A stretch of DNA of 64,000 nt, taken from NCBI GenBank assembly GCA_947379895.1, contig CANCPA010000001.1, forward strand, positions 6,286 to 70,285. The letters are read 5' to 3'. Below are positions 2,385-63,971 of the stretch, piece by piece (position 1 is the stretch's first letter; each line of letters starts with the position of its first letter). Below the pieces are notes generated by a model that saw nothing but the letters and a program-made list of their open reading frames with translations, made no database searches and was not told the origin of the DNA. This DNA is from Chitinophagaceae bacterium. Its GTDB lineage: Bacteria > Bacteroidota > Bacteroidia > Chitinophagales > Chitinophagaceae. A program made the position numbers and the translations under genes.

Positions 2385-2586
2385 AGTGCCAAATATAGAA
2401 AAATGTGTTAGTAATTGTTTCAAGACTTCAAATTCAACTTAACTTAAACATTCATTGCTTCATAAAGAAACCTGAATATTCATCCTGACATTTTTGGAAT
2501 AAAAAAATCTATTCTCCATTTTCGTATCTAATTTAAGGTAAAATTCGTACGGCAATTTCAATTCCGTGTCAAAGTGTCAAAATAAA

Positions 2587-2838
2587 CTCATGAGTTAAGC
2601 GACGCAACTTATAAGTTAAGCGACGCAACTTATAAGTTAAGCGACGCAACTTATAAGTTAAGCGACGCAACCTATGAGTTTAGCGAAAAAACCTATCGGT
2701 TAAGCTATAAAACCTATGAGTTAAATCACACAGCTTATGAGTTAAACTACAAAACCTAATGGTTTAGCGACATAACTTAAGGGTAAAACCACAAGACCTA
2801 TCAGTTAAACGGCAAAACCCATAAGTAAAACGAGAAAG
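2587..2838. repeat. Tandem array of 12 x 21-bp units
   Basis: Units 2-4 are identical (CTTATAAGTTAAGCGACGCAA); units 5-12 are progressively more degenerate. Unit positions 1 (C), 4 (A), 8 (G), 9 (T) and 12 (A) are invariant. Confidence 0.95.
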
Positions 2839-4364: not shown

Positions 4365-4478
4365 GCTAGTTACTAGTTGCAAGTTGCAAGTTACTAGATG
4401 CAAGTTCTAGATACAGGTAATTGATTTAGGAAGTCTAAATTCGCTTACTAATAACTTGTAACTTATAACCTGCAACCA
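4365..4478. repeat. Inverted heptamer-array element between asnS and ctaA
   Basis: GCTAGTT ACTAGTT GCAAGTT GCAAGTT ACTAGAT GCAAGTT starts right after the stop codon; the complementary arm is AACTTGT AACTTAT AACCTGC AAC. Confidence 0.85.
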
Positions 4479-11196: not shown

Positions 11197-11280
11197 TCAA
11201 GTTGCAGGTTACAGACAGGTTGCAGGTTTCAAGTTGCAGGTTTCTAGTACTTGAATCCTGCAACTTGAAACTTGAAACTA
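11197..11280. repeat. Inverted heptamer-array element between convergent genes
   Basis: TCAAGTT GCAGGTT ... GCAGGTT TCAAGTT GCAGGTT versus CCTGC AACTTGA AACTTGA AACT. Confidence 0.85.
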
Positions 11281-30161: not shown

Positions 30162-30827
30162 TTAAGGTATCATCACACTCGTAATTAAACCTACAGGCCC
30201 CCGTTCGGCTCTTCTGTTTTCATAGCAACCTCTCACATAAAGGGTTTTTCCTGAATCTCCGTCTTTAAATGTCATGGTATAAAATGCAGAAGGAATATTT
30301 ACGCCACTACCAAACACGATGTCTTTGTCTGCCAGAGTAGGTAGCCCAATATAACTTTCAAAAAACACTTTATTTCCTTTTGGCATCTTTCTGCTATTAG
30401 GTGTATCAGAATTAATGAGTTTGAATTTAATTAAGAGGTGAGAAATGAACATCACAATAATAACCGGGCACCATGTTGCAACAGGAATTGGACTTCCTGA
30501 ATTGCGAAGAAATAACCTGAGTGCATACCTATCTGCAGTGGTCAATTTTTCTGGATTGATTTTACAAAGAACTGCAGGGAAATCCACCTTAATTTTTGCC
30601 TTTAATCTTTTTTGTTCATTAATAATAGCAGTTGTACACTGATTAGGGTCAATTGCCTTAGCCCTATTTATAGACCACGCGTCTACATCATCAACTAATA
30701 ATGTTTCATCTACAGGTAATATTGCCAATCTTGTTTTATTGGCAAGAATTAAAATATAGATGATTAAAGCAACTACATAACTACTAAAATCAATGTCTTT
30801 TACTGGAAAACGTACTGAAACTGTCAT
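30162..30827 (-). CDS. Uncharacterised 221-aa protein, helical N-terminus plus Ig/FN3-like C-terminus (gene A)
   Basis: Clean ORF with an A-rich start context and its own terminator; no signal peptide. Ends in GKTLYVRGCYENRRAERGPVGLITSVMIP, which resembles a FN3 terminal strand pair. Confidence 0.7.
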   Translation of the reverse strand: MTVSVRFPVKDIDFSSYVVALIIYILILANKTRLAILPVDETLLVDDVDAWSINRAKAIDPNQCTTAIINEQKRLKAKIKVDFPAVLCKINPEKLTTADRYALRLFLRNSGSPIPVATWCPVIIVMFISHLLIKFKLINSDTPNSRKMPKGNKVFFESYIGLPTLADKDIVFGSGVNIPSAFYTMTFKDGDSGKTLYVRGCYENRRAERGPVGLITSVMIP

Positions 30828-31157: not shown

Positions 31158-31702
31158 CCACAATGCATCTTAAACTAGTAAACAAATGAATCATCCTGCC
31201 CTTAAGCATCCTTTACAATGGTGAACAGTTGCGATTTGAGAGAAGAAGGAAAGGTAAGCTGGTTTTAGGATTGGGTAAAAGAAAAAATCTGCATTCTGCA
31301 CCAAAACGGTGGCAGTATTTAAATGGGCAATTTTTTTCACTTTTTTCATGTTGTAAATATCCCACTTAATAAGGAGTGGCAAATCTAAATTTCAATACAA
31401 CCCAAATAATAGGGCAATAAACACAATATGATTCCGCATTCCGACAAATAAATCAAGGTTTTCGGTAAATTATTTAAATAATCTACAATATTTGACAAAA
31501 TAAATATAAACAACAATACAAAATAACGGTTGATTAATAAGGTTTTGTAAAATAACATAGTATCAAATACTAGATTCCTTTGGCAATTTAAACTGTCTAG
31601 TTGTGTCGCAATTTCGAATATCTCATCTAGCGTACTACTAATAAATGAGAATGACCTGCTTTTCATTTCAGGTATATTCTGCATAAAAAAGAAAGAAGAC
31701 AT

Positions 31703-46449: not shown

Positions 46450-47208
46450 ATGAAATATTTTATTGCTACATATATTTTACTTTATTCATTTTGTACACAA
46501 ATACACGCTCAAGCAAGATTGTCTGTTGGAATTAAAGCAGGTACAAATACGCCCGGATTGGGCATTAACAGTTCTGACCCTGTAATTGATGGCTTTAAAA
46601 CTATTTTAGAGCCTTACTATGGCATTGTATTAGAAACAGGCTTGAACAAAAAATGGTCGTTACTTACAGAAGTTAATTACGCAATTTTAGGCATCACAAA
46701 AAACGGAAGTCAAGTAGTGCCAAAAAGTACTTATACTGGCTATGAATTTGGTACACTTATTTTACCCGAACATGTGTATGCTAATTTTTACAGCAAAATA
46801 GAGCTTAATTATATCGAAATACCATGTATGCTGAAATATAATTTCTATCAAAATAAAAAACTAAACATCTTTTTTAATGCAGGCCCGTCAGTGAGTGTAT
46901 TGCTCAACGCCAAAGTGAATACCTCAGGTAAAGGGAAAATTTATTCGGACGAAGCTCATAAAACTACTATTACACCATTCAACTTTTCATTTATTCATGA
47001 AACAGATCTCACCGATTGGTTTAATCCACTCAATTTTGCATTTCAAGGAGGGGCTGGATTAACTTACAAAACTCATACTGGAGATTTTTTTGTAAATCTA
47101 GAGGGCAATATTGGCTTAATGAAAATACAAGCAGGTAATGGAGATGGTTCAAACAATACAAAGGCATTAAACCTTTCTGTGGGATATCTATACCATATTT
47201 GGCAATAA
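46450..47208 (+). CDS. Porin family outer-membrane beta-barrel protein (PorT-like)
   Basis: Signal peptide, GIKAG start, LNYIEIP motif, terminal LSVGYLY strand. Confidence 0.85.
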   Translation: MKYFIATYILLYSFCTQIHAQARLSVGIKAGTNTPGLGINSSDPVIDGFKTILEPYYGIVLETGLNKKWSLLTEVNYAILGITKNGSQVVPKSTYTGYEFGTLILPEHVYANFYSKIELNYIEIPCMLKYNFYQNKKLNIFFNAGPSVSVLLNAKVNTSGKGKIYSDEAHKTTITPFNFSFIHETDLTDWFNPLNFAFQGGAGLTYKTHTGDFFVNLEGNIGLMKIQAGNGDGSNNTKALNLSVGYLYHIWQ

Positions 47209-47441
47209 AAGGCTGAGTTAAAATACGAATGTATAATTGTTACATTTTGTGCTCATAAACTTAGACAAACAAATTATTTGAATTAGCTATAATTTGTTGA
47301 AAAATGATAATGCAGATAAAAGGTATGAATAATTAACTTTACTATTTAGTCTATTGTAGCCACTCATTTTCAAATTTATAATTTACTACCCCATTTTTCA
47401 TAGAACGTCTTGTGTGTAAAAGGGAAAGAGTTTCGCAGAAT

Positions 47442-47630
47442 TTCAATTATTTCATCGAGGATTTCCAATATCTGTACCGGACCTTCGAAAGTCGAAATTA
47501 GGCTTTCGAAGGTCCGGTACAGATATTGGAAAAAAAATGACTTTTCTTATATTTTCTCCATCAATAATTCTATTCCCAGAATATGACTTTCGAAGAAATC
47601 AGCGACATATTCTAAGACAATTGACTAACA
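47442..47630. repeat. Cryptic 21-bp-periodic array (9 units)
   Basis: TT(C)NAW recurs at 47442, 47463, 47484, 47505, 47526, 47547, 47568, 47589 and 47610. TT, the position-5 A and the position-6 W are present in 9/9; position-3 C in 7/9. Confidence 0.65.
47462..47532. repeat. Perfect 30-bp inverted repeat with an 11-nt loop
   Basis: TTTCCAATATCTGTACCGGACCTTCGAAAG-TCGAAATTAGG-CTTTCGAAGGTCCGGTACAGATATTGGAAA. Confidence 0.97.
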
Positions 47631-47771
47631 ATTCAATATTTTGTCACTTTTTAGCTCTTTTTATGTTAATGTTTTGCCTTTTAGAAATAATACTTGTTCT
47701 TTCAAGCAAATACTCCTTGTATTAACGTAGTTTCACTGAGTTACAATAAAAAAATGTAATAACAACGAACG

Positions 47772-48437
47772 ATGACATTACATATGTTAGTCTCCCGTGA
47801 ATATAAAAAAAAGAATACAGTTGATAAAGTTCCATTTTATCAAAACATTCATGACCTGATGAGCAAAACAGGATCTCTTTTTGCCGATCCTCTCGTAACC
47901 TATATAATAGGTAATACTCAAATTGGCAATTTCCGAAGCGCCTATGGTATTGCACAGAGTCATGCAATTGGAACTGCTTCTTTGATGCATGATGCAGAAG
48001 GCATTTGTGAAGCAACAATAGATATTTGGGCAGATTATGTAGATCGTGTTGCGAAGGGGTCAAAGTCAATCATTGAATCAGCAGGTTTCAAAGCTACGGC
48101 TGGAGAATCTACTCCGGGTAAAGTTACAGATCAACCTGTAATTGAAACTGTAAACCCAAATGTAGAAGGTGTTATGAATTTTGAAGTTGAATTGTTGGAG
48201 GGAAAAGAAAATGTATTTAATATAATTGTGGCTACCGACCTTTCGGGTGTGTCACAAGCAGGAAATGAAGTTATTTTCGCACCTATTGCAGGCGTTACCT
48301 ATTATACGGCCTCATCAATGCAAAGGAAAATAAGCATGGGTGGACTGCCAAAGACTATATTACTTTATGCACTTTGCTATTCTACAAACAGGGCCGGGAA
48401 CAGTGTATTAAGTAAAATTATTCACTTTAGTTGTTAG
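47772..48437 (+). CDS. Uncharacterised 221-aa protein, helical N-terminus plus Ig/FN3-like C-terminus (gene B)
   Basis: Clean ORF with its own terminator; no signal peptide. Contains 'VAKGSKSIIESAGF', a Pro linker and a beta-rich C-terminus ending LYALCYSTNRAGNSVLS. Confidence 0.75.
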   Translation: MTLHMLVSREYKKKNTVDKVPFYQNIHDLMSKTGSLFADPLVTYIIGNTQIGNFRSAYGIAQSHAIGTASLMHDAEGICEATIDIWADYVDRVAKGSKSIIESAGFKATAGESTPGKVTDQPVIETVNPNVEGVMNFEVELLEGKENVFNIIVATDLSGVSQAGNEVIFAPIAGVTYYTASSMQRKISMGGLPKTILLYALCYSTNRAGNSVLSKIIHFSC

Positions 48438-48489
48438 CATTAGCTGAGAAGAGTCTATTTTAAATTACAATTTTAGTTTTGATTAAATT

Positions 48490-48524
48490 AAACCGTTGAC
48501 ATGAACGAATGTCGACGGTTTTTT
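48490..48524 (+). terminator. Intrinsic terminator of gene B
   Basis: AAACCGTTGACAT-GAACGA-ATGTCGACGGTTT followed by a T-run. Confidence 0.85.
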
Positions 48525-48722
48525 CATTTTAACCCAGATTACAGCTACTATCAAATTGAGGAAATTAGCGTAAATTGAAATATATCAATTAATATGTTGA
48601 CTACTTAAACACCCTCTATTTGGTTACTCTAAGTACATACATTGTTCATTAACAGGTAGTAAATACTGTTTCACCGAAAAGTTGATTCTATAAACTAAAG
48701 TTTTCAATCAGGTAAATATCTT

Positions 48723-48737
48723 TGGCATCGGGTTTGA
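48723..48737 (+). promoter_or_regulatory. Putative sigma54 (-24/-12) promoter
   Basis: TGGCATCGGGTTTGA has the exact GG-N10-G spacing of TGGCACN5TTGC, with A in place of the final C. Confidence 0.5.
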
Positions 48738-48747
48738 GATATTAATA

Positions 48748-48830
48748 GAATAAAATCAGACATTAAAGTTATTATCATAAATAGTTAGTTTTGGTTGCGG
48801 CTCCGATTTTTATCGGGGCCAATTTTTTTT
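48748..48830 (+). ncRNA. Candidate ~80-nt small RNA
   Basis: Lies between the sigma54-like promoter and the terminator GGCTCCGAT-TTTT-ATCGGGGCC-AA-T8 (48799-48830). Contains no ATG; has TTAGTTTTGGTTG just before the stem. Confidence 0.4.
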
Positions 48831-49338
48831 AGCCCCCTATAATCGAAATTTCATAATAAAGTGGATAAGAATGATCTATTAAAAAAAAGGTTTCATTTTA
48901 AGGTGATTATACTCGATGCAAACTCAGAATTAAAAAGAAAAATAAGAGCATCTATAAATAACCAGCAGTTAAGTATCAGAAATAAGTTCTGTTCAATCTG
49001 ATTCTTAGTACAAAACCTAGTACCTGTAGAGGTAAAACCACCTTAATAGTATTGGAAATGAAAAAGTATTTCAGCTATTTTTATTGAGATAAAATAACAA
49101 ATCAAGGTAGATTCAAACTAAACAAACTAATTATTTAATTTGAAGTAGACTTAGATTGGTATAATGTACAATTAATTAAACTTGTTTTGAAGAGAAAGAA
49201 ATAGTATTCTATAAAATTAATAATGGACATACTTTATCAACTTTTCTTTATATAAATCAGTTTTTGAGAGGAATAAAACATCGTTTTGTTAATAAAACGC
49301 ACTTATTATTAGGATTTTGTCAAACTTGGAACGTTTTA

Positions 49339-62239: not shown

Positions 62240-62333
62240 GTTGCTAGTTGTCGGTTTTAAGTTATACGTTTTAAGTTATACGTTTAAAATTTTAAAAACT
62301 TACAACTTAAAACGTATAACCTACAACTCATAA
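62240..62333. repeat. Inverted heptamer/14-mer array element
   Basis: TTTTAAGTTATACG x2 on the left; GTTATACGTTTTAA (62261-62274) pairs perfectly with TTAAAACGTATAAC on the right. Confidence 0.85.
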
Positions 62334-63131: not shown

Positions 63132-63272
63132 TAGGTAATAAGTTGTAGGTTGTAAGTATTAGGTTTTTAAAAAAGAAAACAATTGTAAAACAAATACATT
63201 TCCAATAATTTAAGTTGCAAACCCACGCCCCTATACCTTTTACCTAATACTTATTACCTATTACTTACAACT
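63132..63272. repeat. Inverted heptamer-array element
   Basis: TAGGTAATAAG pairs with CTTATTACCTA; AAGTATTAGGT pairs with ACCTAATACTT; 7-nt periodic arms. Confidence 0.8.
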
Positions 63273-63971
63273 TTACTTGCCTTCATTTCTTTTGGCCCTT
63301 ATCGCATCTAATGCTGATGTGCCCGAAGAAGTCCCTAATATCTTATTAATTTCTTGTTCCGACGACAAAGTAGTATCCCTTACTTCAGCATAAGCCTGTG
63401 ACCTAAATTCTTGTGCAGTTACTTTTGAGTCCATTCTATCCAATGTGCCCATTAAGCCATCAGTATCAACATTTGACAATGTCTTATTTATTTTCTCACT
63501 CACATCTGCAGTCTTTGCCCTTGATTTCAATAGATTAATTCTATTTTCAGCCTCAGAAATTCGATCTTTTAATTGTTGAATAGCCGTTTCCATTACTTCT
63601 AATGCCTGTTCTTCCTTGTTTGCCATACTTGCAAATTCATCAGCATGTTTAATTGCTTGTTGTCCACTTTCAGCAGCAGTTTCTGCGAGTGAATTTCCTT
63701 TAGCAGCGTCTAATTTCCCTGCCTCAACCATATCTAGCAAGTCATTCGCCTTCTTTTCCCACTCTTCCCCTTTTGTTCTTGCTTTATTTTCTTCAGCCCT
63801 ATGTTGCAAGGCAGCTGCTTTTACTTCTGCTTCTCCGGCTATTGCTTCCTGATAATTCTCTTTTAACTCACGCAATACCTGATCTGCCATCTTAATTGGA
63901 TCTTCAAATTTATCTACTACGGCATTTGCTTCTGACTTACCTATTCTAAAAATTCTTTCAAATAGTCCCAT
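63273..63971 (-). CDS. pspA: PspA/IM30 family protein (bacterial ESCRT-III-like)
   Basis: MGLFERIFRI...DKFEDPIKM N-terminus followed by a long coiled coil. Confidence 0.93.
   Translation of the reverse strand: MGLFERIFRIGKSEANAVVDKFEDPIKMADQVLRELKENYQEAIAGEAEVKAAALQHRAEENKARTKGEEWEKKANDLLDMVEAGKLDAAKGNSLAETAAESGQQAIKHADEFASMANKEEQALEVMETAIQQLKDRISEAENRINLLKSRAKTADVSEKINKTLSNVDTDGLMGTLDRMDSKVTAQEFRSQAYAEVRDTTLSSEQEINKILGTSSGTSALDAIRAKRNEGK

What the first reader, a model, noticed from the sequence alone, without database searches (positions are those of the whole stretch)
47772..48437. Second 221-aa helix-bundle + Ig-like gene (locus B) mirrors locus A
Seen: same length and same two-part layout as the gene at 30162-30827, no export signal, monocistronic with a strong terminator, and preceded by the phased array and palindrome. 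It is inserted between a porin gene and the rimP operon. Inference: distant paralogues that arrive as self-contained cassettes of array, palindrome, gene and terminator. This would be a small mobile or regulatory system with no transposase of its own.
Basis: partly seen in the sequence, partly recalled or inferred. Interest (0 to 1): 0.65.

Follow-up and report, generated by a model that had tools for sequence, protein, structure and literature searches.

The report
Orphan gene with private 21-bp array
The gene is real and belongs to an undescribed type of stand-alone module in Chitinophagales bacteria: a small non-secreted protein gene that always keeps its own 21-base repeat array just upstream. 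The module was inserted here between a porin gene and the rimP operon, and its function is still unknown.

Summary
Gene B (47772-48437, +) is a real gene under purifying selection (dN/dS 0.11). It encodes a protein with a three-helix bundle and an FN3 domain, and I saw no export signal by eye.

The module reads: a weak but significant 21-bp phased array (47442-47630) with a 35-nt-arm palindrome in register, a conserved promoter/5'UTR block (47645-47771), the CDS, and a 13-bp-stem terminator (48490-48521). Two same-genus relatives have porin and rimP adjacent without it.

"Mirrors locus A" holds only for layout. A and B show no detectable homology (hhalign probability 1-5%), and the equal length looks coincidental. 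Each belongs to its own multicopy family (16 and 12 copies).

Five unrelated orphan families (86 genes) carry a 21-bp-period array upstream in 60% of copies, against 5.6% of other genes (p 5e-40). Family-B genes keep such arrays across the order, even in single-copy genomes, while unit sequences differ completely. In one recently duplicated pair a 10-nt core is invariant in all 37 units, and unit number is 14 versus 24.

My best reading is an iterated protein-binding control element private to each cassette; the binder is unknown. No transposition signature was found.

This scan noted the same array-plus-gene pattern before in three other genomes. I found no literature on it.

The parts
47442..47630 (.). 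Degenerate 21-bp phased array of 9 units, each starting TTCNAA. It lies about 45 nt or more upstream of the conserved promoter block.
   Evidence: Rows of 21 and autocorrelation peaks at lags 21, 42 and 63. z 4.6 against a shuffled maximum of 2.5. Not called by TRF.
47462..47532 (.). Palindrome with 35-nt arms (94% complementary, 1 nt between them), lying in register inside the array and unique in the genome.
   Evidence: Only generic hairpin (miRNA-type) Rfam matches, all below gathering score. The closest orthologue has a 15-nt-arm palindrome in each 63-nt unit.
47645..47771 (+). Conserved promoter/5'UTR block. It contains the dyad or hairpin GTTACA (47740-47745) / TGTAAT (47755-47760), which ends 12 nt before the ATG.
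   Evidence: Similarity to orthologue L015 starts at 47645 (76.5% nt over 797 nt). Four-way alignment shows invariant blocks. One of the 6 predicted pairs changes on both sides and is kept (A-U to G-C in two sequences). The promoter assignment is an inference.
47772..48437 (+). Gene B: a 221-aa protein with a three-helix bundle (residues 1-104), a linker and an FN3 domain (124-220). No signal peptide was seen by eye.
   Evidence: dN/dS is 0.11 against L015. No Pfam, NCBIfam, PHROG or PADLOC hit.
48490..48530 (+). Intrinsic terminator: 13-bp stem, 6-nt loop and T run, 53 nt after the stop codon.
47209..48720 (.). Approximate extent of DNA present here but absent between porin and rimP in same-genus genomes G001 and G013. 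The exact ends are not defined.
   Evidence: In G013 about 90 nt, and in G001 about 155 nt, separate the porin gene from the conserved element that corresponds to 48721-48831.

Best explanation
Gene B is the coding part of an autonomous expression module. The module type is old and is found across the window's order (Chitinophagales).

The order of parts is:
- a 21-bp-phased array;
- a conserved promoter/5'UTR;
- the CDS of a small, probably cytoplasmic two-domain protein (three-helix bundle plus FN3; no catalytic domain recognised);
- a terminator.

The array most likely works as a row of binding sites, all on one face of the helix because 21 bp is two helical turns. Each unit carries a short conserved core, often dyad-symmetric, and a free spacer. 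A sequence-specific protein would bind cooperatively along it and set transcription from the promoter just downstream. Gain or loss of units would tune the output.

Each cassette has its own core, so the simplest source of specificity is the cassette's own product (autoregulation). This is the least secure step.

Shown:
- the anatomy of the module;
- the array-gene linkage across orthologues, paralogues and families;
- core conservation and unit-number change in one duplicated pair;
- presence or absence at this locus.

Inferred:
- that the array is untranscribed and protein-bound;
- the direction of regulation;
- the identity of the binder;
- the cellular role of the protein.
For: Linkage:
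- 52 of 86 genes in five orphan families have a true 21-type array within 700 nt upstream, against 175 of 3141 other genes (odds ratio 26, p 5e-40). For A plus B the count is 17 of 28.
- Four B orthologues at 60-76% identity all have arrays at the same distance, with unrelated units.
- 11 of 14 B-family genes in other genera and families of the order have arrays, including genomes with a single copy.

Constraint on period and presence, not on sequence:
- dS is 1.28 between the window and L015. The promoter block is still about 76% identical, while the arrays cannot be aligned yet remain periodic.

Signs of binding sites:
- In two cassette copies that are 89% identical, the 10-nt core GTTGATAATG is invariant in all 37 units. 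Spacer positions vary, and unit number is 14 versus 24.
- Two A paralogues (74% aa identity) keep the core TCTCTTAA.
- Units are enriched for dyad symmetry: 26 of 104 score 14 or more, against 8.4 expected.
- Arrays at unlinked loci share units without any flank homology (94 pairs with at least 16 of 21 matches, against 17 in shuffles).

Position: the array ends at 47630, and the conserved promoter block starts at 47645.

Genome level:
- Array density and family-gene density rise together in six same-genus genomes (5 to 122 arrays per Mb, 0 to 21 family genes per Mb).
- A and B copy numbers co-vary across the 19 same-genus genomes covered by both searches.
Against: - No binder is identified. 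The N-domain has no structural match to any DNA-binding fold (best Foldseek E 0.9).
- pI within each family ranges from 5.2 to 10, and gene B's product is acidic (pI 5.95). Five sequence-unrelated families would all have to bind DNA.
- Most arrays in the genome (about 270 of 323) are not next to a family gene, so the arrays are not private to these cassettes.
- The array at locus B is the weakest of those examined and may be decaying.
The array could therefore be transcribed.
- Core invariance was seen in young arrays. Part of it may simply reflect recent expansion.
Confidence: 0.45

Rival explanations
1. The module is a non-autonomous mobile cassette, moved in trans in the manner of mobile insertion cassettes or integron cassettes. 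The array and/or palindrome would be the recombination site rather than a transcriptional element.
For: - The cassette is absent from the porin-rimP spacer in G001 and G013.
- B orthologues lie in four different contexts, and another paralogue lies in five different contexts.
- Copy number within the genus is patchy, from 0 to 24.
- A 1363-nt duplication in G028 starts at the array.
- One 10-nt inverted match lies at 47381 and 48655.
Against: - No target-site duplication and no convincing terminal repeats were found; the 10-nt inverted match is a lone hit, and about 0.9 shared 9-mers are expected by chance.
- No near-identical copies exist, and the palindromes are unique.
- Orthologue similarity stops at the promoter and at the stop codon, so arrays and terminators are not carried along recognisably.
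- No recombinase is linked to the cassette.
- There are no hits in the phage or plasmid collections.
- Mobility and a regulatory array are not mutually exclusive.
Confidence: 0.2
2. The arrays are structural DNA that does not depend on sequence. Any 21-bp unit repeated in phase gives coherent curvature. That curvature either activates the promoter or recruits a nucleoid or silencing protein to recently acquired genes.
For: - Period and position are conserved while sequence is not.
- Periods are 21, 42, 63 and 84.
- Arrays also occur upstream of housekeeping genes such as asnS.
- Array density co-varies with the orphan families at genome level.
Against: - A 10-nt core is invariant while the spacers vary.
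- Paralogues share cores.
- Units show excess dyad symmetry and no 10-11-nt sub-periodicity (lag 10 gives 0.235 against 0.268 in shuffles).
- Unlinked arrays share units.
Confidence: 0.2
3. This is an iteron-type replication or partition locus: direct repeats plus an inverted-repeat operator plus an autoregulated initiator or centromere-binding protein.
For: The architecture is direct repeats at two-turn spacing with a palindrome built from the same units, directly upstream of the gene.
Against: - Eighty-six such genes are scattered on the chromosome.
- The protein has no winged-helix, RHH or HTH fold.
- No partner NTPase is present, as the gene is monocistronic.
- There are no plasmid or phage homologues.
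Confidence: 0.03
4. It is a chance ORF or a decaying pseudogene next to a chance palindrome.
For: The array here is weak, and there is no Pfam hit.
Against: - dN/dS is 0.11.
- The AF2 model has pLDDT 87.
- About 100 of the top 150 representative hits are full-length proteins of about 220 aa.
- Array phasing gives z 4.6 against shuffles.
Confidence: 0.01

Closest known systems
Iteron plasmids (Rep protein plus 17-22-bp iterons plus an inverted-repeat operator, e.g. pPS10, R6K, P1). From my own knowledge.
   Same: Direct repeats at about two helical turns, a conserved core with a variable spacer, and an inverted repeat made of the same units next to the gene's promoter. The repeat sequence is private to each element.
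   Different: Dozens of copies per chromosome. The protein is a helix bundle plus FN3, not a winged-helix Rep. There is no evidence of replication function and there are no plasmid homologues.
Type II/III partition centromeres (parC-ParR, tubC-TubR). From my own knowledge.
   Same: Arrays of iterated sites upstream of, and regulating, the genes whose product binds them. Binding is cooperative along one face of the helix.
   Different: No NTPase partner and no RHH or HTH fold. The loci are chromosomal, dispersed and multicopy.
Promoter-repeat contingency loci (e.g. the 7-bp repeats upstream of Haemophilus influenzae hmw1A).
   Same: A tandem repeat tract between an upstream region and a promoter, whose unit number changes quickly (14 versus 24 units in near-identical copies).
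   Different: Units are 21 bp with exact helical phasing and a conserved core. The tract lies outside the core promoter. No population-level switching has been shown.
Mobile insertion cassettes and integron gene cassettes (passenger genes without their own transposase). From my own knowledge.
   Same: A single passenger gene with its own cis elements, found in varying contexts with no linked recombinase.
   Different: No terminal inverted repeats, target duplications, attC-like 3' site or platform were found.
FN3 (fibronectin type III) domains
   Same: The C-terminal 100 residues match FN3 by sequence profile and by fold.
   Different: The domain is fused to an N-terminal three-helix bundle with no fold match. 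There is no signal peptide or repeat context. No Pfam model reaches E 0.01 in any of the 21 members scanned.

Membership tests
FN3 domain superfamily (C-terminal half of protein B) | Sequence-profile similarity to known FN3 domains | tested here: met
   The family-B profile hits titin FN3 at E 1e-12 and fibronectin at E 1e-6. The Pfam scan of single sequences found nothing.
FN3 domain superfamily (C-terminal half of protein B) | Seven-stranded beta-sandwich fold | tested here: met
   AF2 strands span 124-220. Foldseek top hits are FN3 domains with TM (target-normalised) up to 0.79.
Same protein family as locus A gene (30162-30827) | Detectable sequence or profile homology | tested here: not met
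   BLASTP E 23. The jackhmmer families are disjoint. hhalign probability is 1-5%.
Same protein family as locus A gene (30162-30827) | Same domain architecture (helical N-domain plus FN3) | tested here: inconclusive
   The A profile gives no FN3 hit in PDB sequences. Only the last strands align weakly with B and F230.
Iteron/Rep replication module | Tandem direct repeats of 17-22 bp at about two-turn spacing next to the gene | tested here: met
Iteron/Rep replication module | Adjacent gene encodes a winged-helix Rep initiator | tested here: not met
   No Pfam or NCBIfam hit. The N-domain has no fold match.
Iteron/Rep replication module | One or a few per replicon, located on plasmids or phages | tested here: not met
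   28 A+B copies and 86 genes across five families on chromosomal contigs. No phage hits for A or B and no plasmid hit for B.
ParR/TubR-type centromere module | Partner partition NTPase in the same operon | tested here: not met
   The gene is monocistronic, lying between the array and the terminator.
Mobile insertion cassette / MITE-like non-autonomous element | Terminal inverted repeats and target-site duplication | tested here: not met
   Only one 10-nt inverted match (47381 and 48655) and no direct repeat of 9 nt or more.
Mobile insertion cassette / MITE-like non-autonomous element | Several near-identical copies in the genome | tested here: not met
   The flanks, array and palindrome are unique. 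Paralogues are 12-30% identical.
Promoter-repeat contingency locus | Unit number differs between very close copies or strains | tested here: inconclusive
   14 versus 24 units in two 89%-identical cassettes of G028.
Promoter-repeat contingency locus | Unit number changes expression | not testable with these tools
   Needs reporter assays or transcript data.

The most novel reading that the evidence does not exclude
Chitinophagales carry a previously undescribed class of dispersed 'array-plus-gene' modules. Dozens of small two-domain proteins from several unrelated families would each recognise a private iterated 21-bp operator. They would do so at their own promoter and at matching arrays in front of ordinary genes such as asnS or trpC. 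Together they would form a large, fast-evolving, cassette-borne regulatory or silencing network that spreads between genomes without its own transposase.
Probability: 0.2. Interest if true: 0.9.

Novelty: categorically new. Interest (0 to 1): 0.7.

Why it matters
If the arrays are private operator rows for the adjacent orphan genes, this would be a new way of organising gene control in bacteria. Up to about 90 self-contained modules per genome would each have their own repeat code. Unit number would change quickly, and matching arrays would sit in front of housekeeping genes.

It would also assign a role to several large families of 'hypothetical' proteins. These account for a visible share of accessory genes in freshwater Chitinophagaceae.

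It would explain why some species of one genus carry about 75-120 such arrays per Mb and others almost none.

Even the conservative reading gives a precise, testable cis element: a fixed 21-bp period, a conserved core and a defined distance to the promoter. Some of the genomes that carry it are complete (G021, G028), so a cultured host may exist.

Tried and rejected
- Homology of A and B: BLASTP, jackhmmer and hhalign were all negative.
- Known families: Pfam, NCBIfam, PHROGs and PADLOC gave no hits for A, B or the other orphan families.
- Fold of the N-domain alone: no PDB match. The full-length model matches only through its FN3 part.
- Palindromes or arrays as dispersed repeats: both palindromes and both sets of flanks are unique in the genome.
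- Rfam: only generic hairpin matches below threshold on the palindrome, and nothing for 48721-48831.
- Terminal repeats and target duplication around the cassette: none convincing.
- Similarity between the empty-site spacers in relatives and the array unit: none.
- Small conserved ORFs upstream of B-family arrays: none. Only a subgroup of family A has one.
- Helical sub-periodicity (10-11 nt) inside units: absent.
- Array polarity relative to the gene: only a slight excess of homogeneity in the distal half (p 0.003 for non-family arrays, not significant for family arrays).
- Enrichment of family genes or arrays at contig ends: none.
- Basic pI as a hint of DNA binding: not seen.
- Phage and plasmid collections: no homologues.
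- Literature: three searches found nothing relevant.
- The search for related loci with the broad alignment failed. With the narrow alignment it returned only a Chitinophagaceae MAG and one weak hit.

Full report
**1. What is at the coordinates**

- The ORF at 47772-48437 (+) encodes 221 aa, and the ORF at 30162-30827 (-) also encodes 221 aa.
- Gene B lies between an outer-membrane beta-barrel gene (46450-47208, PF13568, E 4e-18) and rimP-nusA-infB (from 49425).
- It is a real gene. Twelve close homologues (44-77% identity, mostly exactly 221 aa) exist in metagenomes.
- A profile search of 1.8 billion representative proteins returned 3013 hits at E 1e-10 or better. About 100 of the top 150 are full-length proteins of about 220 aa, and the remainder are large FN3-repeat proteins. 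All those looked up that carry a name are called 'hypothetical protein'.
- Against the closest orthologue with DNA in hand (L015), dN/dS is 0.11 and dS is 1.28.

**2. The protein**

- AF2 with a 21-sequence alignment gives pLDDT 87. The model has helices at 16-31, 44-61, 68-94 and 98-103, a low-confidence linker, then a beta sandwich at 124-220.
- The sandwich is FN3, both by profile against PDB sequences (titin, E 1e-12) and by fold.
- The N-domain modelled alone (pLDDT 82) is a three-helix bundle clasped by two short strands. It has no significant structural neighbour (best E 0.9).
- Pfam, NCBIfam, PHROGs and PADLOC are silent, including for all 21 aligned members.
- The N-terminus has no hydrophobic signal-like stretch. 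This is my inspection only.
- The protein is acidic (pI 5.95), and pI within the family ranges from 5.8 to 9.5.

**3. The cis elements**

- The palindrome at 47462-47532 is real (35-nt arms, 94% complementary).
- The 'phased array' is real but weak. Written in rows of 21 from 47442, nine rows start with TTCNAA. Lags 21, 42 and 63 are the three top autocorrelation peaks, and z is 4.6 against a maximum of 2.5 in 100 shuffles. The palindrome sits in register inside the array.
- A 13-bp-stem terminator follows the stop codon (48490-48521).
- Between the array and the ATG there is a block conserved among four orthologues. It contains a 6-bp dyad or hairpin (47740-47745 / 47755-47760) in which one pair changes on both sides and is kept (A-U to G-C).
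- Nucleotide similarity to L015 runs from 47645 exactly to the stop codon (76.5%). The array and the terminator are not alignable.
- With dS at 1.28, sequence loss in unconstrained DNA is expected. What is not expected under neutrality is that every orthologue still has a well-formed array.

**4. A and B are not detectable paralogues, but they belong together**

- BLASTP finds nothing.
- Iterated searches of all ORFs of the genome give 16 family-A and 12 family-B members with no overlap.
- Profile-profile comparison gives 1-5% probability.
- An A profile does not hit FN3 in PDB sequences, so the 'Ig-like' half of A remains unverified.
- The identical length therefore looks like coincidence.
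- Even so, A and B copy numbers rise and fall together across the 19 same-genus genomes covered by both searches. Examples (B/A): 24/18, 18/14, 21/11 and 16/7, against 0/0 in six genomes.

**5. The array-gene linkage is the main result**

- TRF on the 900 nt upstream of all 28 paralogues found arrays of 21-, 42-, 63- or 84-nt period at most of them. Each has a different unit.
- Genome-wide there are 323 true 21-type arrays, plus 76 heptamer-based arrays.
- Three further orphan groups without any database match are array-linked: F318 (17 short copies), F305/F315 (about 30 short copies; treated as one group after the profile match, and counted as two among the 'five families' tallied) and F230 (10 copies).
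- Taken together, 52 of 86 family genes have an array within 700 nt upstream, against 175 of 3141 other genes (odds ratio 26, p 5e-40). For A plus B the count is 17 of 28 (p 1e-14).
- Other array-linked genes belong to ordinary families at background rates.

**6. The linkage is old and intrinsic**

- Four B orthologues on metagenome contigs (60-76% identity) carry arrays 180-370 nt upstream. Their units are unrelated (ATACTTTGCAAAGTTTCCTCC; CCTTTGTTGTAAAACTTTGCT; and a 63-nt unit that contains a 15-nt-arm palindrome).
- The palindromic 63-nt unit explains the palindrome at locus B as part of the array, not as a separate element.
- Orthologues of another B paralogue in four species have arrays of about 246 nt and no flank homology.
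- In other genera and families of the order, 11 of 14 B-family genes have arrays of up to 23.5 units. These include genomes with a single copy.
- The N-domain was found in the window's own order only: in 5 of about 25 genomes there, and in 0 of about 275 elsewhere in the phylum.
- A close relative is labelled as a Chitinophagaceae MAG.

**7. What the arrays look like functionally**

- Two cassettes in one complete genome are 89% identical over 1363 nt but carry 14 and 24 units.
- The 10-nt core GTTGATAATG is invariant in all 37 units, while five or six spacer positions vary. Runs of identical units show recent expansion.
- The two closest A paralogues (74% aa identity) share the core TCTCTTAA.
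- Units are enriched for dyad symmetry (26 of 104 score 14 or more, against 8.4 expected). They have no 10-11-nt sub-period.
- Arrays at unlinked loci share units far more often than shuffled units do (94 pairs against 17 with at least 16 of 21 matches). In most such groups similarity is confined to the array itself.
- For example, a family-A array matches one upstream of a trpC-like gene (identified by eye from its translation). A family-B array matches one upstream of a membrane-protein gene. The window's array at 2585-2837, upstream of asnS, matches two others.
- One group is instead a dispersed 335-725-nt repeat.

**8. Genome-level co-variation**

- In samples of 93-400 kb from same-genus genomes, array density and family-gene density rise together, apart from the last pair.
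- Arrays per Mb / family genes per Mb: 5/0, 20/5, 30/5, 75/16 (this genome), 86/21 and 122/12.5.
- These genomes are related to one another, so this is support and not a statistical test.

**9. Insertion at this locus**

- In G001 and G013, porin and rimP are neighbours. They are separated only by a conserved element of about 112 nt that corresponds to window 48721-48831.
- About 1.4 kb, holding the array, gene B and the terminator, is therefore extra here.
- I found no target duplication, no convincing terminal repeats (one 10-nt inverted match), no second copy of any flank, and no homologues in phage or plasmid collections.

**10. Interpretation**

- The evidence best fits a self-contained expression module. 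In it, the array is an iterated, same-face binding platform that controls the adjacent promoter.
- The binder is unknown. The cassette's own product is the simplest candidate because cores are private to each cassette. However, nothing in its fold or charge supports DNA binding.
- The rival readings are curvature or silencing, a recombination site, and an iteron origin. They are weighed in the report sections.
'Paralogues' is not supported, and 'mobile' is unproven.

**11. Limits**

- I used crude ORF-based gene calls (120 aa or longer).
- The assembly is fragmented (401 contigs).
- Other genomes were only sampled.
- There is no structure for protein A.

**12. Earlier notes of this scan**

- Three follow-ups on other genomes, plus first-reader notes on this window, describe the same array-plus-orphan-gene pattern.
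- My tests agree with them. They add the genome-wide statistics, the cross-genome co-variation, the core/spacer pattern and the empty-site comparison.

Noticed in passing
window 48721-48831 (+): A conserved element of about 112 nt, 83-85% identical in same-genus relatives. It has a sigma54-type -24/-12 motif (TGGCAT-N5-TTGA), a variable middle part and a 9-bp-stem terminator with a T run. It sits upstream of rimP, with one copy in G013 and three tandem copies in G001. No Rfam family matches it.
   Followed up: partly
window 31191-31349 (-): A 52-aa ORF upstream of the locus A array ends in SFFSQIATVHHCKG..AG. Between the two most divergent copies compared, the differences in this motif fall at third codon positions. 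It occurs in 5-6 copies in the genome; four are followed by a family-A gene and four by a 21-nt array. So locus A is probably a two-gene module.
   Followed up: partly
whole genome; in the window e.g. 4366-4469, 11197-11279, 62254-62328, 63230-63273: There are hundreds of 7- and 14-nt-period arrays (362 TRF rows). Some lie directly after the stop codons of family genes in relatives. They are nearly absent from array-poor genomes of the same genus (0 rows in 400 kb of G011).
   Followed up: partly
window 2585-2837: The 21-nt array upstream of asnS shares its unit with arrays at two unlinked loci (G000 C2:29715-29922 and C30:3608-3786). There is no similarity outside the arrays.
   Followed up: partly
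G000 C6:47889, C83:20061, C100:5931, C191:5318: A dispersed repeat of 335-725 nt at 91-95% identity carries a 66-nt, 3-unit array (AGTATTGGCAAAAACGCTCGC). One copy lies upstream of a family-B paralogue.
   Followed up: no
G000 contigs, e.g. C27:18007-18966, C150:8539-9459, C325:1160-1855: There are three more orphan multicopy groups without any database hit: F318 (17 short copies), F305/F315 (about 30 copies, with a weak CarboxypepD_reg-like C-terminus) and F230 (10 copies). Between 45% and 82% of their members have 21-nt arrays upstream.
   Followed up: partly
window 47740-47760: A dyad or hairpin, GTTACA-N9-TGTAAT, ends 12 nt before the ATG of gene B. It is conserved in four orthologues, and one pair changes on both sides and is kept. 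It could be a 5'UTR stem or a second operator.
   Followed up: partly
window 47381-47390 and 48655-48664: A lone 10-nt inverted match (ATTTACTACC / GGTAGTAAAT) brackets the array, the gene and the terminator. It is too short to call a terminal repeat, and there is no flanking duplication.
   Followed up: partly
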